NCBI GenBank assembly: GCA_029932465.1
Contig: JAOZQA010000020.1
Location: 1 to 33,162, forward strand
DNA: 33,162 bases
Source: Thermoplasmatota archaeon
Lineage (GTDB): Archaea > Thermoplasmatota > Penumbrarchaeia > Penumbrarchaeales > EX4484-36
Direction: 5' to 3'
Numbering within the stretch: the stretch's first letter is position 1; the number at the start of each line of letters is the position of its first letter. Below are positions 24,001 through 30,000 of this stretch, piece by piece. Position numbers: made by a program.

Positions 24001-27000
24001 ATGCCGGCGTTTATTATCATCTTAATGCAGACCGAGCAGGGGTAGTTCGTCACGTACATGGTAGCCCCCTTAAGCGACACCCCGAAGTAGGCTGCCTGTA
24101 TGATGGCATTCTGCTCCGCGTGGACCCCCCTGCAGAGCTCGTGCCTCTCTCCCGGGGGTATGTTGAGCTTCTCCCTGAGGCAGCCCGTTACATCGCAGTG
24201 GGGTAGACCCTTGGGAGGGCCATTGTACCCTGTGGTGAGAACATGTTTCTCCTTCACCACAACCGCCCCCACCTTTCTTCTAGTACAGGTTGCGCGGGAG
24301 GCTACAAGGTATGCCATCCTCATGAAATACTCGTCCGCTGAGGGTCTCCGGGAGACCTCAAAATCCATACCTTCATCTTCACTGCTTTTCATTTCAAGCC
24401 CCCTCCTAAAAGGCCTTCACCATATAAATTTTAAATAAAAACTGCCCCTTAAGGGGGCTGTGTCAAATGACAATCCCGGTGAGAACAAGGATTCTAAGAG
24501 GGAGCTCAAAACCCTCCTTATGGACCTCCTGGCTGTACTTATAGTCCTCCTTTTGATATTCGCCTCCCTCTACACCTACCTAGGCAGATACCCCTTCGTA
24601 GTGGTTGTGAAGTCCGGGTCCATGATGCACGGAGATGACTCCGCAGTGGGGATTATAGACACCGGGGACCTGGTGTTCGTTAAAGATGTGGAGCGAAGGG
24701 AAGACATCGTCACTTACGTGGAGGGAGAGAAGAAGGGGTACAAGAGGTTCGGCTCCTACGGGGATGTCATAATCTACAAGCGAAACGGGGACAACTCAAC
24801 CATTCCAATCATTCATCGGGCGGTGGTGTGGATCGAGGCCAACTTAAGCGGGGCCCGCTACTCCTATGACGTTCCCTCCCTCAAACTCTATAACATCACC
24901 ACAAGGTTCGTCATCCAGGACTACGGCTACAGAAAGAGAGATATCGTGGTGGACGTCTCAAGAATCCTTGCTATATTCTCTCATTTGCGCTTGACCCCAC
25001 ACTCAGGCTTCATAACCAAGGGGGACAACAACCTCTTCGTTGACCAGAACTCCAACTTCACAGGCCCAGTGCAGTATATTCTGCCAGTTAAGCTCTCATG
25101 GATCGTAGGGAAGGCCGTGGGGGAGCTGCCCTGGTTTGGACTCGTCAAGCTTTACCTGAACGGGGAAGTGGGGGAGGGGGTGGGAAAGGAGCCCGTGCCC
25201 CCATCATCACGCAGGGGACTTATAATTTCCCTCTCGGTGATAGTCTTCATCACCTTTATCCTCCCATATATAATCGAGGTGGCCTACAGGGCGGTAAAGA
25301 AAAGGGGAGGGGAGGGAGGGGTGGAGGAGGTGCCATCTCAGCCCCCACCAGGCCGGACAATGCCCAGGGCCTCCCCGGGGAAGAGGCCACCCCGACCCCC
25401 ACCAGCCCCTTGGCGTTGAAAAGATACCGTCCCCTCCTCTTTAAAACTCCCCTTCACCGACTCCTCCCGGGCGCCTTAAGTCCGGGAGCTTCACTGGGCG
25501 TTGTAGAAGATCTGGGCATCGCTGGGGGAGTACTCCCCCTCCCCCTTGATTATGTATTCCACCCGGACTTTCTCCCCGGGTGCTATAGATTCAAAGTGCC
25601 ACTCAAGGAGCTTCTCCCCGCTCACAAGCTCCTTAATCGCTGGGTCATGGCTGGCCGCCTTGAGCTGGAAGTTCACCGGAAGCAAGTCCCTCAAGACCAC
25701 ACCGGTCACGGGGCTGTTGCCCTCGTTGAAGTAGAAGAGCTCTATTTTGTACTCCCCAGGTTCCCCTGAGGGTTCGATAGCCTTCCCCACGGCCATCTTC
25801 TTGACTACCAGGGTGACGTTCACCGAGGGATGGGCTCCCAGAAGCTTGCCAGTGACGGGCGGACCCCTCTCAACAGGCAGGCCGACCACATCGGTGGGGA
25901 AGCTGTATATCTCCTCCGGCGCAGGCCGGGAGATGACCACGGGGTAGCGCACCTGAAGGGTCTCCTCCGGGCGAAGCCCCCCAGGGATGGCCCCCACTTT
26001 GAGGAGCATCTCCCCCTTCTCCTCATCGTAGTTCATCCATAGCTTGATTCCTGGGGAGGGGCTGCCGTTTTTAAGGATCGTTATCTCATCTATCTTGGGG
26101 GGAACAGCTCCCTCAGGTATGGACTCCCTCAAGAGGACCTCTCTGAAGGTGGCTGAGGCCCCGTTCTTGATGTCCACCGTCAGGGTCAGCCTGCTGGGCC
26201 TGTAGGAGGCTATCTCCTTTCTGTCGGCGCTCTTGCTGTATATGAGGTGGGCGGGCTTTAATATGAGTCCTCTTCGGGTAAGCCGGAAAGAATACTCTTG
26301 GGACAGGGAGGGAATCACTCTGAACTGGATGTTTTTTAGGAAGGCGGGCTTCTCCTGGTTTTCAACAGTCCATGTGTCGGATTTCCATACGCCCTTGGGT
26401 GGGACCACCTCCTCCATGTTCTCAAGCGCAAGATATATCTCCCTGGTCTTGGCGTCCAGCACCTCCACCCTCTCCAGCTTGACCGAGAAGGCTGAAGGGT
26501 TGCGGTAGGTGAGCTGACACTGCCAGGTACCGGGAACGTCCGTCTCGGACATCTCCACTACATACATGTTCTTGCAGAGGCCCCCGAAGTCCTTCACGAC
26601 AACCCCTGATATCTTCTCAGGAGCTCTGGCACTCACATTAGTCCTCCCCATCTCCACCTCATCCTTTTCCTTTAGGACTATCTCTCCCGTCATCTTAAGT
26701 ATCTTGATCTCTCCGGGGCCTATCTCGTTCAGCCTCCAAAGAAGCTTTCCCCCCTCAAGGTTCACCTCCTCATCCTCTTCACCCCCGAAGGTGGTGAGGT
26801 TGCTTATCTCCCCGGGAAGAAGCTTCTCCACCTCAACGTCCACCATCTTGACAGGCGTTAAGTTCTTCAGCCCTAGGTGGATCTCCACGGGGAGGGCCTC
26901 CCCCATGGGAATGCTGCTGGGATTGGGATAGTCCTCCGAGATTATGAAGAGCTCCTCCAGAGCAAGGGAGATGTCCTCCTTCTTCAGCAGGTAATCCAGC

Positions 27001-30000
27001 TTGTATGTGCGGCCGGGCTCGATCTCCTTGATCTTTATCATGTCCCGGGGGAGGGTGGTGGCGGAGACCTCGTCCAGCTCCACGTAGACGTCCCACAGCC
27101 TGTCCGAAGTGGAGCGATTTATCACCCTGAAGGCCCCCTCGACCCTGTGACTTATCGTCTCCCCTTGCTGGTCAATCTCTGCTATCTCGCTCTCCTCAAA
27201 GTTTATAACGGCATTGGACTCCTCGGAGAAGAGTATGCTTCGCTCCTCCCTCTCCTTCTTCTCCGCCATCTCCCTCTTCACCCACTCCTCGTAGTACTCG
27301 TACATGAGGGCTCCCGTTCTGGCATCTATCTTTGCCCCAACCCTGCTTATGCCCGGGTCGGGGGAGAGGACTGTCATGTCCCTGTCGTAGGTGTATTTGA
27401 AGGGGACCTTCTTGACAAGCCTCTTCTCCACGATGTCTCTATCTACCTCTTCAACCGTACAACCACCCCCGGGGTAGTTTTTTAACTGAAAAGATAAAAG
27501 GTGGGGATATAAATAATTATAGCGAGAGGGTTTATCCAGGCGTATGAGGTTCTCCTTAAGTAGCTGGGATGTGAAAAAGGTTGTGGAGGAGCTCTCCTTC
27601 CTCCCCGGGACACACATCAGCCAGATATATTACAATGAGCACTCTTTGAGGATCAGGCTCTCTGCATTGACCGAGAGACTCCCGGAGATGCTGAAAAGTG
27701 GAGGAGAGGGACGCTACTCCCGCTTTGATATGATCTTCAAGCTCCCCGGGGCACTTTTCATCCTTCCCCAGGGGGTGGCCCCCCCGTCACCCCCGCCCAC
27801 CTCCTTCGCCATGGCCTTAAGAAAGCACCTTTCAGGCTCGGCGGTAGAGGGCATTGAGCAGGTGGGAGGAGACAGAATCATGAGGCTCAGGCTGAGGAGG
27901 GGGGAGGAGGAGGCTGAGCTCATAGTTGAGATGTTCTCCAAGGGGAACATCATTATGGTAAAGGGCGGTGAGATCGCACTCCTTCTTCGCAGGGAGGAGT
28001 TCGCCTCTCGGAAGCTTCAGCCCTCCCTTCCCTACACACCGCCTCCCTCAACACTGCCCTTGTGTGTTCTGGAAGTGGAGGGCGTGGGAGAAGAGGTAGG
28101 GGAGAAGGTCCGCAGGAGCGGGAGGAGGGCCATAGCCGCTGCACTGGTGAAGGAGCTCTCCCTTCCTCCGCCCATAGCTAGAGAGGTGCTGCACAGGGCG
28201 GGGATAGGGGAGAGGACCCCAGCGGAGGAGGCCTGGGAGAGGTGGGACAGGATAGTGGAGACCTTAGAGGAGCTGCTTGAGGAGCTCAAAAGTGGGGGCT
28301 GCTACGTCTACTGGCTGGAAGATGAGGTGCTCACATCTCCCGTTGAACTCCGCCATCTCACCCGGGAGGGGGAGCGCCATCCCACCTACCTCAAGGCTCT
28401 TCTTTCAATCTATAGCAGCCTGGTGGGAGAGGAGGAGAGGAAGGGGGATGTGACAGAGGGAGTGGCTGAGGAGGACCAGAATCGCCTGGAAAGAAGGCTC
28501 AAGATGCAGAGGGAGGCACTTGAGAGGCTTGAAGAGGAGATGAAGCGCTGCAGGGAGCTGGCAGAGTGCATTTACAGACACTACGGGGAGCTTCAAGGGA
28601 TTGTGGAGATCTATGACTCCAGTGGGGGGGACCCGAAGGCGCTAATAGGGCTTGAGGAGAGAGGGGTGAAGGAGGTGGACACCAAGAAGAAAGTAGCCCT
28701 TGTTGAGGTTGACGACCAGCTCCTAGGCAGAGTTGAGCTCGAGCTACCCCTTGACAGAGGCGTGAACGGTGCGGCACAGCTCTACTACGAGAGGGCGAAG
28801 ACCGCTAGGAGGAAGATAGAGGGCCTAAGGAAGGCCATGGAGGAGACCGAGAGACTCATCAGGAAGGGGGCAGTGGAGGAGAAGAGGCCTGAAGCTAGAT
28901 GGAAACCCAGGAGAAGGTTCTGGTTCGATCCCTACCGCTGGTTTATCACCTCCCGGGGCAGAATAGCCGTTGCCGGGAGGGATGCCAAGAGCAACGAGAG
29001 GGTTGTGAAGAGGTACCTTAAGGACGGGGACATATATCTGCACGCGGACGTTCAGGGGGCTTCCTCGGTGGTTCTAAAAATGGAGGGGGGGGAGGTGGAT
29101 GAGAAGGAGCTTGAGGAGGCCGCTCAGTTCGCCGTGATAAATTCAAAGGCATGGAGGGCGGCCCACGCCTTCGGCAGGGCCTTCTGGGTTCTCCCCCACC
29201 AGGTCAGCAAGACCCCCCCTTCCGGGGAGTTCCTCCCCCGGGGTTCCTTCATGATACGGGGCAAGAAGAATTTCGTGGACCACCTCCCGCTGAGGTGCGC
29301 TGCCGGCCCTGTGGAGGTGGAGGGGGAGAGGAGGTTCATGTGCGGACCGGAGAGCGCACTGAGGGCCCACGCCCCCTGGTTCATAGTTCTGGAACCGGGG
29401 GAGACCCCCCGACGGGAGGTCCTCTCCGCCCTTGAGAGGTTAAGTGGGCTCCCCAGGGAACTGATTGAGCAACAGCTACCCCCGGGGGATTTTAAAATAG
29501 TTGAAGTCCACGGAGGAGAGGGGGTGAGAGCGGCTTTCAGGAGGCTCTTGGAGGGGGATTCAGAGGAATCCTGAGTCGGTGAGCTCCTTCACGATCTGAT
29601 CAAGGGCCTCTCTAATTTCCTCTTCATTCCTCGCCCCGGTGCAGACTATCTTTCCTGAGCCGAAGAGCAGTGCTACAACCTTTGGCTTCTCCACCCTGTA
29701 CACGAGCCCGGGGAACTGCTCAGGCTCGTACTCCACCCTCTCCAGCCCAAGGGTTATGGCTATGTTGTTGAGATTAAGAGGCACGTTCAGTTCGGATGTA
29801 GCCACGATGTTCTGGATCTCTATCTCCGGCTCGTCGGAGACATCCATGCCGAGTTCCTTGATCTTCTTCACAACCCGCCTTACGACCTCCTTGGCCTCCT
29901 CCACGCTCTTGGCCCCCGTGCAGACCATCTTGCCGCTGGAGAAGAGGAGAAGGGCGGTCTTCGGCTCCTTTACTCTGTAAATCAGCCCGGGGAACCTCTC

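What a model noticed while it worked through the whole genome (the two positions that open the first line are those of the whole stretch)
25491..27431. Core mu-adaptin (MHD) plus gamma-ear homologue of the Asgard type in a Thermoplasmatota archaeon
g01518 is a single-copy 646-aa protein with no predicted membrane segment, whose family profile matches adaptor mu-subunit and delta-COP mu-homology domains in its N-terminal half and, weakly, the gamma-adaptin ear at its C terminus. It is likely a cytoplasmic cargo-adaptor-like coat protein that reads the tails of this cell's many single-pass surface proteins. New if true: an adaptor-complex 'Asgard signature' protein is a core gene of three Thermoplasmatota families, so it is not confined to Asgard archaea among prokaryotes.
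Evidence so far: A 73-sequence profile against PDB gives AP-2 mu E 5.7e-5 and AP-3 mu 9.4e-4, then gamma-adaptin ear 0.033 (positions 556-627), AP-1 mu 0.08, and AP-4 mu and delta-COP 0.16 (positions 44-84); 34 of the 37 hits are adaptor or coatomer chains. Found in 26 of 37 class genomes, 23 of 24 in the sister family. In 68 of 251 phylum genomes: f2 12/12, f14 18/20, f28 36/38, f7 1/1, none in the other families. Named homologues are from Njordarchaeia and Helarchaeota. Fixed synteny: signal peptidase in 20 of 20 loci, RqcH in 18 of 20.
(Added by a program. Inside this text positions count along the whole contig: contig position 1 is position 1 of the stretch shown here. "Call 12" and the like, gene names such as g00115 and contig names such as C1 are that model's own, and its searches are not shown. 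The text may have been shortened before it was handed on; [...] marks where a part breaks off. The agent that wrote the report below was given it as the finding of a first reader that could run no searches.)

Follow-up and report, generated by a model that had tools for sequence, protein, structure and literature searches.

The report
Mu-homology scaffold in non-Asgard archaeon
This Thermoplasmatota archaeon carries a single-copy gene, shared by most of its order and by marine Group II archaea, for a likely cytoplasmic protein whose first half is predicted to fold like the mu-homology domain of eukaryotic vesicle-coat adaptors; the papers I could search list the family only for Asgard archaea, and a role in a coat is untested.

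Summary
The gene is real: 646 aa, minus strand, single copy. An AlphaFold model (pLDDT 87) matches whole mu-homology domains (MHDs) of AP-4, AP-2, delta-COP, AP-3 and SGIP1 over residues 72-388 (Z 14-15.5; top three 211-225 residues, rmsd 2.7-3.3). An extra domain of about 85 residues is inferred before the last strand. Sequence profiles agree. It is the family that Eme 2023 listed as Asgard mu-subunit homologues. It occurs in 85 of 301 phylum genomes: this order and Poseidoniales.

The 'gamma-ear' is not supported. The C-terminal domain is a DUF11-type repeat of the protein's own MHD subdomain B, and no ear appeared among the top fold matches. The tyrosine-motif pocket is not conserved, and YxxPhi is not enriched in the genome's 112 surface-protein tails. 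The conserved neighbours are not co-transcribed. A separate appendage-like gene exists in 37 of 37 class genomes but was not found in Poseidoniales family f14. Trees do not resolve transfer versus inheritance.

Best reading: a stand-alone MHD scaffold that works like muniscin or stonin MHDs, not an AP subunit. Earlier scan notes already reported the Poseidoniales copies.

The parts
25491..27431 (-). Gene for the 646-aa mu-homology scaffold protein (P0001), GTG start, stop included
27222..27431 (-). Residues 1-70: N-terminal extension. Low model confidence to residue ~45, then a helix (46-64). Joint most conserved part within the class (45% mean identity), with a D-x-x-T-G-A-L-M-Y motif; likely a binding module. 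Replaced by a long proline-rich, acidic stretch in f14/f31 copies
26973..27218 (-). Residues 72-153: first part of MHD subdomain A
   Evidence: N-terminal strand alignment to AP-2 mu, AP-4 mu, delta-COP
26571..26972 (-). Residues 154-287: MHD subdomain B (also DUF11-like) and the strand that returns to subdomain A
26316..26570 (-). Residues ~288-372: extra beta domain inferred to be inserted between the last two strands of the MHD; 42% conserved in the class, more than the MHD subdomains (32-34%)
   Evidence: inferred (317 residues spanned, 209-226 aligned); conservation
26268..26315 (-). Residues 373-388: last MHD strand (aligns to the C terminus of mu chains)
   Evidence: model 388 = AP-2 mu 435, AP-4 mu 453, delta-COP 511
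25809..26252 (-). Residues 394-541: CnaA/cohesin/CLIPPER-type beta sandwich; internal repeat of subdomain B
   Evidence: SpaD Z 14.4, cohesin 13.8, CLIPPER 12.0; hhalign 95.7%
25512..25799 (-).
   Evidence: DUF11 30.3 bits, cut-off 24.6; (hhalign 98.2%)
24460..25419 (+).
27544..29574 (+). RqcH/NFACT neighbour, divergent

Best explanation
The gene encodes a likely cytoplasmic, acidic protein predicted to be a chain of beta-sandwich domains whose first half is a mu-homology domain (MHD), and it likely works as a stand-alone docking scaffold for short motifs of partner proteins rather than as a subunit of an AP or COPI complex. Shown by calls: the gene, its distribution, the predicted fold, the lack of a membrane segment, the internal repeats and the lack of a conserved tyrosine pocket. 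Inferred: like the MHDs of SGIP1/FCHo/Syp1 and stonins (recalled), it would bind unfolded peptides on its beta-sheet edges and faces near the inner face of the membrane. Its conserved add-ons (N-terminal motif, inserted domain, last domain) would carry the main contacts. Lineages swap the terminal modules (HEAT repeats in some Asgard-side copies; polyproline, acidic linker and zinc ribbon in Poseidoniales), which fits a hub whose partners change.
For: Fold: pLDDT 86.8 from 46 Thermoplasmatota sequences without templates. The five best of 48,161 chains are MHDs, covering 211-226 of 242-285 residues in one superposition at rmsd 2.7-3.4. Sequence: 30 of 36 PDB hits are MHD chains from five protein families. 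Pfam PF00928 rings at E<=0.1 in 8 of 46 Thermoplasmatota members (best 2.5e-6) and 32 of 61 mostly Asgard-side members (best 1.9e-10); the 8 Thermoplasmatota hits inspected are under the curated cut-off. Cytoplasmic: 1 of 116 family hits has a clear N-terminal hydrophobic segment, and none of 52 locus-derived frames exceeds 1.6. Six of 115 family hits start with a short Phe-Gly/Arg-basic stretch of the kind that could target membranes (reading recalled). Stand-alone: no N-terminal longin domain; PF01217, Arf and Snf7 not found over cut-off in this genome. Add-ons are more conserved than the MHD core. Poseidoniales copies have proline-rich N termini and C-terminal zinc ribbons.
Against: No partner, localisation or expression was shown. 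A shared fold shows no function. Pilin and cohesin domains score almost as high (Z 14.4) but on a different part of the protein. Every folded module also resembles DUF11 adhesin domains, and one small clade (P0142 and five relatives) has an N-terminal signal or anchor, so the fold can also work outside the cell. The absence searches are weak: the PF01217 control rang nowhere. The window's own protein lacks the basic N-terminal stretch.
Confidence: 0.5

Rival explanations
1. Self-assembling sub-membrane or cytoskeletal scaffold: the multi-domain rod polymerises, with the N-terminal motif or the inserted domain docking into the last domain of the next copy.
For: The N-terminal 70 residues are poorly modelled in the monomer yet 45% conserved; the insert and the last domain are the most conserved folded parts. 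Domains 3 and 4 resemble pilin building blocks. The gene persists in Poseidoniales, where the appendage-like family was not found.
Against: The N-terminal motif is absent from f14/f31 copies. No isopeptide-type asparagine is conserved at the positions inspected in domains 3 and 4 (positions chosen from recalled DUF11 consensus). Self-assembly was not modelled.
Confidence: 0.2
2. Proto-coat adaptor: the MHD protein works with the separate appendage-like protein (G000:C79:9002-9838) and longin-like domains to sort or cluster single-pass surface proteins at membrane buds.
For: The appendage-like family is in 37 of 37 class genomes, mostly single copy in f2. It resembles adaptin appendages by language-model features (0.84, a lead only) and matches the beta-COP C-terminal region weakly over profile positions 5-188 (E 0.12). 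One class genome has it on a membrane-protein tail 6 kb from the MHD gene. This genome has 112 single-pass proteins with long proline-rich or acidic tails.
Against: The two genes do not co-occur strictly: appendage 0 of 21 in f14 where the MHD gene is 19 of 21, and appendage present in f9, f12, f13, f27, f30 where the MHD gene was not found. Tail motifs known from eukaryotic cargo are not enriched. Surface proteins are as dense in an MHD-negative genome. No Arf or sigma subunit found.
Confidence: 0.15
3. An internalised DUF11/adhesin-type repeat protein whose likeness to the MHD is convergent.
For: DUF11 is the only Pfam hit of the window's protein and rings in 46 of 46 and 60 of 61 members. 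The Thermoplasmatota-only profile finds no adaptor chain. Much of the sequence signal sits in subdomain B, a generic Ig-like module.
Against: Both subdomains and their interleaved chain path superpose together on five eukaryotic MHD families. One profile alignment runs across both subdomains of delta-COP (positions 38-233, E 0.0033), and separate hits fall on subdomain A.
Confidence: 0.08
4. Accessory factor of protein export or translation quality control.
For: Neighbours are a signal-peptidase-like gene and RqcH in the class and, by my reading of the translations, a GPN-loop GTPase and a DUF106-like membrane gene in Poseidoniales. The last domain weakly matches TRAP-complex chains (E 0.004-0.011).
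Against: The neighbours are on the opposite strand and differ between lineages. The TRAP match is one of many generic Ig-like matches.
Confidence: 0.05

Closest known systems
Asgard archaeal 'Adap_comp_sub (PF00928)' candidates, Eme et al. 2023 (PMC10307638, Supplementary Table 3)
   Same: Same family. About 32 of the 38 rows I saw (of 44) carry the family's motifs by eye. Two proteins found by my profile start with the same residues as rows labelled Helarchaeales and Lokiarchaeales, and a third nearly the same as Hermodarchaeia rows. Source names add Njordarchaeia, Thorarchaeota and Borrarchaeum.
   Different: Here in Thermoplasmatota and single copy; the table shows more than one type of copy within Lokiarchaeales. 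The passages I read give no whole-protein architecture (insert, two extra DUF11-type domains) and no non-Asgard occurrence.
C-terminal MHD of AP-1 to AP-4 mu subunits and delta-COP
   Same: Predicted two-subdomain fold and chain path (Z 13-15.5); weak sequence signal.
   Different: No N-terminal longin domain; an inserted domain of about 85 residues; two extra C-terminal domains; tyrosine-pocket columns not conserved; no sigma subunit or Arf found.
Stand-alone MHD proteins: muniscins (SGIP1, FCHo, Syp1) and stonins
   Same: An MHD outside a heterotetramer (SGIP1 Z 14.1, Syp1 Z 12.4). Poseidoniales copies have a long proline-rich region before the MHD, as SGIP1 does (recalled).
   Different: No F-BAR domain; the MHD is not C-terminal; DPF and NPF motifs are rare in this genome's tails (1 and 0 of 70).
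DUF11/CLIPPER adhesin domains (bioRxiv 10.1101/2025.04.25.650565)
   Same: Subdomain B and domains 3 and 4 are DUF11-like by Pfam and fold (CLIPPER 9ifr Z 12.0 and 8.3).
   Different: That paper places DUF11 in secreted fibrillar adhesins; this family is nearly always without a signal peptide and builds an MHD from such modules.
Archaeal adaptin-appendage proteins of ESCRT loci, Makarova et al. 2024 (PMC10936438)
   Same: Precedent for adaptor-complex modules in non-Asgard archaea (Meth_adaptin, Halo_adaptin). The separate class-wide appendage-like protein looks like this kind.
   Different: The passages read concern appendage (ear) domains, not the mu-homology domain; no Snf7 match over cut-off was found in this genome.

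Membership tests
Mu-homology domain fold | Two beta-sandwich subdomains with the chain passing A to B and back to A | tested here: met
   Model residues 72-388 superpose on whole MHDs, first to last strand, rmsd 2.7-3.7; predicted model, not a solved structure
Mu-homology domain fold | Sequence similarity to PF00928 | tested here: inconclusive
   Window protein has no hit; relatives ring in 8 of 46 and 32 of 61 at E<=0.1; the Thermoplasmatota hits inspected stay under the 31.6-bit cut-off (best 27.5)
Asgard PF00928 candidate family (Eme 2023) | Full-length homology to the listed proteins | tested here: met
   Profile A1 hits P0067, P0088, P0118 at E 3.5e-88, 1.4e-79, 1.3e-72; their starts match table rows
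AP/COPI medium (mu/delta) subunit | N-terminal longin domain | tested here: not met
   Residues 1-70 are a low-confidence stretch and one helix
AP/COPI medium (mu/delta) subunit | YxxPhi pocket residues (mu2 D176, K203, W421, R423; numbering recalled) | tested here: not met
   Equivalent columns 77, 104, 374, 376 vary or hold other residues. Register taken; the last strand may be off by one or two
AP/COPI medium (mu/delta) subunit | Sigma and large trunk subunits, Arf GTPase in the genome | tested here: inconclusive
   PF01217 no match but control silent; Arf none at E<=0.001; trunk family not searched; a separate appendage-like protein is present
AP/COPI medium (mu/delta) subunit | Binds cargo and forms a coat on membranes | not testable with these tools
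   needs biochemistry or imaging
Gamma-adaptin ear (GAE) | Last domain closer to ear domains than to other Ig-like domains | tested here: inconclusive
   E 0.13; Alpha_adaptinC2 rings weakly in 9 of 46 members, on the last domain in some and on subdomain B in others; the domain aligns to the protein's own subdomain B at 98%
DUF11/CLIPPER adhesin | DUF11 profile over cut-off | tested here: met
   30.3 bits against 24.6 at residues 568-629
DUF11/CLIPPER adhesin | Signal peptide and surface location | tested here: not met
   no hydrophobic segment; the exception is the P0142 clade
DUF11/CLIPPER adhesin | Lys-Asp-Asn isopeptide triad | tested here: inconclusive

The most novel reading that the evidence does not exclude
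The mu-homology domain of eukaryotic coats descends from an archaeal scaffold family, built from DUF11-type modules, that is older than Asgard archaea. In this Thermoplasmatota class it works with a separate adaptin-appendage protein as a proto-adaptor that organises more than 100 single-pass surface proteins from the inner face of the membrane.
Probability: 0.15. Interest if true: 0.85.

Novelty: new variant of a known kind. Interest (0 to 1): 0.6.

Why it matters
The mu domain was counted among Asgard 'eukaryotic signature' modules (PMC10307638). Its presence as a conserved single-copy gene in two deep Thermoplasmatota lineages means it is older or more mobile than Asgard archaea, so it cannot by itself mark vesicle trafficking. 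The internal repeats suggest how the MHD arose from DUF11-type modules. The compact 646-aa copy, without the long disordered arms of Poseidoniales copies, is a practical target for a first structure and partner search. Within this scan the Poseidoniales half of the claim was already noted several times. What this window adds is a second lineage, the corrected architecture and the class-wide appendage-like gene.

Tried and rejected
Single-sequence and Thermoplasmatota-only searches against PDB sequences found no adaptor chain. Two word-index homologue searches returned only the window's own cluster and one fragment. No relative in viral contigs. No gamma ear among the 50 rows shown in each of three fold searches of the last domain or in a profile search; absence from a list does not exclude it. 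I first placed the insert at residues 154-272 (note) and corrected it. Complex prediction of the MHD protein with the appendage-like protein gave no answer (score 0.00), which is no evidence either way. Trees (LG+G4, 50 rows; C20 mixture, 42 rows; the bootstrap run did not finish) left the deep branches open; 20 and 28 of 70 picked rows were left out for time. The organism behind the signal-peptide clade stayed unnamed. An Atlas lead to Pfam AF2028_C could not be followed: the family is not in the library and a paper search gave only antibody catalogue numbers by their titles. C-terminal Glu-Glu as a cargo signal: strong in this genome but 0 of 2 short tails in an MHD-positive f31 genome and 1 of 2 in an MHD-negative class genome (samples too small to decide). 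An acidic Phi-Phi-Trp motif in 3 of 70 tails (p about 0.01-0.04) was chosen after seeing the tails, among 14 patterns, and is not counted. No other archaeal phylum was searched genome by genome.
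Full report
Observation. The minus-strand frame ending at 25491 gives 646 aa from the GTG at 27431. The protein is acidic and has no hydrophobic segment. Its only Pfam hit is DUF11 at 568-629, just over cut-off. It is single copy in the 94.6% complete genome and is found in 26 of 37 class genomes, 23 of 24 in the sister family f2. In 301 phylum genomes both the single protein and a 79-sequence profile match 87. 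In the profile search two of these are weak C-terminal-only hits, leaving 85: the own genome, f2 23, f3 1, f7 1, f14 19 of 21, and 40 f31 genomes (the f31 denominator was not printed). It was not found in the other families sampled, nor in the 80% complete genome of the same genus. A protein that groups with an f14 copy is named Ca. Thalassarchaeaceae by its source, and a genome scan returned many loci titled Poseidoniales or Marine Group II. That f31 is Poseidoniaceae is my inference from the gene tree and shared neighbours.

Fold. AlphaFold2 on 46 Thermoplasmatota sequences gave pLDDT 86.8, low only for residues 1-45. Against 48,161 solved chains the five best matches are MHDs: AP-4 mu (Z 15.5, rmsd 2.7, 211 of 245 residues), AP-2 mu (15.5, 3.3, 225 of 252), delta-COP (15.4, 2.9, 213 of 242), an AP-2 mu chimera and AP-3 mu (14.8); AP-1 mu, SGIP1 and Syp1 follow at 14.2, 14.1 and 12.4. 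All span model residues about 72-388, first to last strand. Residues 394-541 match pilin, cohesin and CLIPPER domains (Z 12-14.4). Foldseek on the whole model ranked long multi-Ig proteins first with poor TM scores, and AP-2 mu with the best target-normalised TM (up to 0.67). The Atlas finds whole-length look-alikes only in Thermoplasmatota and Asgard clusters.

Sequence. The single protein and the Thermoplasmatota-only profile find no adaptor chain. With Asgard-side relatives added, 30 of 36 PDB hits are MHD chains, all 22 under E 0.01 among them, best AP-3 mu 6.5e-5; these come from five protein families. The alignments put residues about 155-287 on subdomain B and the returning strand. As the structural match ends at 388, an extra domain of about 85 residues (288-372) is inferred between the last two strands. 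In the reverse direction PF00928 rings at E<=0.1 in 8 of 46 Thermoplasmatota and 32 of 61 mostly Asgard-side members; the eight Thermoplasmatota hits are below the curated cut-off. I put homology to eukaryotic MHDs at about 0.9.

The 'ear'. The last domain folded alone (pLDDT 85) matches CBM2 domains (Z 10.9), Mfa5, mu subdomain B (9.4) and integrin domains; no adaptin ear is among the rows shown. Profile-profile comparison shows that subdomain B, domain 3 and domain 4 are repeats of one module (95.7-98.2%). The weak Alpha_adaptinC2 signal falls on either repeat. The simplest reading is a duplicated DUF11-type module, not a gamma ear.

Cargo reading. The columns that correspond to the mu2 tyrosine pocket (numbering recalled) vary or hold other residues. 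A hydrophobicity screen finds 112 single-pass surface proteins in this genome. In the 70 tails of 30 residues or more, YxxPhi (19 against 19.0), dileucine, di-tryptophan, DPF and NPF motifs are not enriched over shuffles; CxxC and polyproline are. A class genome without the gene has the same density of such proteins in a 400-kb sample (24). Within the class the N-terminal extension, the insert and the last domain are better conserved (42-45%) than the MHD subdomains (32-34%).

Neighbours and partners. The signal-peptidase-like gene (22 of 25 class loci) and RqcH (20 of 25) are conserved only in the class and lie on the opposite strand. Poseidoniales copies sit among other housekeeping genes and carry a polyproline N terminus and an acidic C-terminal linker with a zinc ribbon. 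No sigma subunit, Arf or Snf7 was found over cut-off in this genome, with weak controls. A separate protein family with appendage-like features is in 37 of 37 class genomes, including this one (C79:9002-9838), but in 0 of 21 f14 genomes, and it is present in families that lack the MHD gene. Its fold was not modelled, so 'appendage' is a lead.

Origin. A profile search of 1.84 billion representatives gave 450 hits under 1e-30; only the best 150 were seen, and they include giant DUF11-repeat proteins. In trees the class copies and the Poseidoniales copies each form a supported group, with branches as long as those among Asgard-side proteins; the links between groups are unresolved (support 10-30 for the Thermoplasmatota split) and there is no root. 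Most Asgard-side rows are unnamed; one 'named' row (P0132) took its label from its sister P0149. A recent transfer or contamination is unlikely, given the depth and the conserved gene order; ancient transfer and inheritance with loss both remain open. One small unnamed clade has an N-terminal signal or anchor.

Literature. Eme 2023 (PMC10307638): I read passages of the main text and 38 of 44 PF00928 rows of Supplementary Table 3; the main supplementary PDF could not be opened and may bear on novelty. Makarova 2024 (PMC10936438), the isopeptide survey (10.1101/2025.04.25.650565), PMC9258230, PMC13734099 and 10.1101/2025.11.06.686947: passages only; bioRxiv supplements are closed. PMC13734099 states that 88% of its coat and adaptor ESPs fall in structural clusters shared across all four lineages, so sharing of such folds with other prokaryotes is not unexpected. 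Nine searches listed no paper that reports this family in Thermoplasmatota; most subscription journals are not covered. Seven earlier notes of this scan describe the Poseidoniales copies; they are not independent evidence.

Verdict. A real MHD-type protein of the published Asgard family, conserved in two non-Asgard lineages: a new variant of a known kind. It most likely works as a stand-alone docking scaffold (0.5). It fails membership tests for an AP medium subunit, and the gamma-ear label should be dropped. Interest 0.6.

Noticed in passing
G000:C79:9002-9838 (L102:4003-4839 +) and orthologues L103-L121: A 279-aa soluble protein with adaptin-appendage-like features, in 37 of 37 class genomes; most start with a short Phe-Asp-Arg-Leu-Phe-type amphipathic stretch. 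In this genome, its genus mate and f2 it is followed by an unannotated ~319-aa zinc-ribbon protein.
   Followed up: partly
L093 (G096), L096 (G111), L078:8760-11150 (G001): Single-pass membrane proteins whose cytoplasmic tails carry the appendage-like domain; in L093 it follows a longin-like stretch (by eye; no Pfam support). Families f13, f27, f30, f37 hold 5-10 such genes each.
   Followed up: partly
genome-wide, G000: 19 of 41 short cytoplasmic tails of single-pass proteins end in Glu-Glu (1.4 expected from shuffles; 27 of 794 other proteins): a possible C-terminal signal. Not tied to the MHD gene in small samples.
   Followed up: partly
P0142, P0192-P0196: A small unnamed clade of the MHD family with an N-terminal signal peptide or membrane anchor, so probably exported.
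   Followed up: partly
P0152, P0045, P0068, P0076, P0096, P0126: Family members with N-terminal HEAT-like repeats fused to the MHD (Pfam HEAT_2 E 8.5e-15 for P0152; the others by eye), a trunk-plus-mu arrangement in one chain.
   Followed up: no
window 29560-30111; G000:C13 and C44: The genome has TBP matches at three loci; in f2 a TBP gene also lies next to the appendage-like gene.
   Followed up: no
window 15315-15932 and 20421-21598: OapC, OapB and a GTPase gene (origin-associated cluster), split by about 4.5 kb that holds a PKD-repeat protein, a methyltransferase and a laminin-G-like gene.
   Followed up: no
window 871-2196 and 2329-3831: Two adjacent AAA_14 + DUF4143 ATPase genes.
   Followed up: no
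G000:C27:45067-46056: A 330-aa protein with two Ig-like repeats that match the appendage profile, inside a cluster that looks like archaellum or pilin genes by eye.
   Followed up: no
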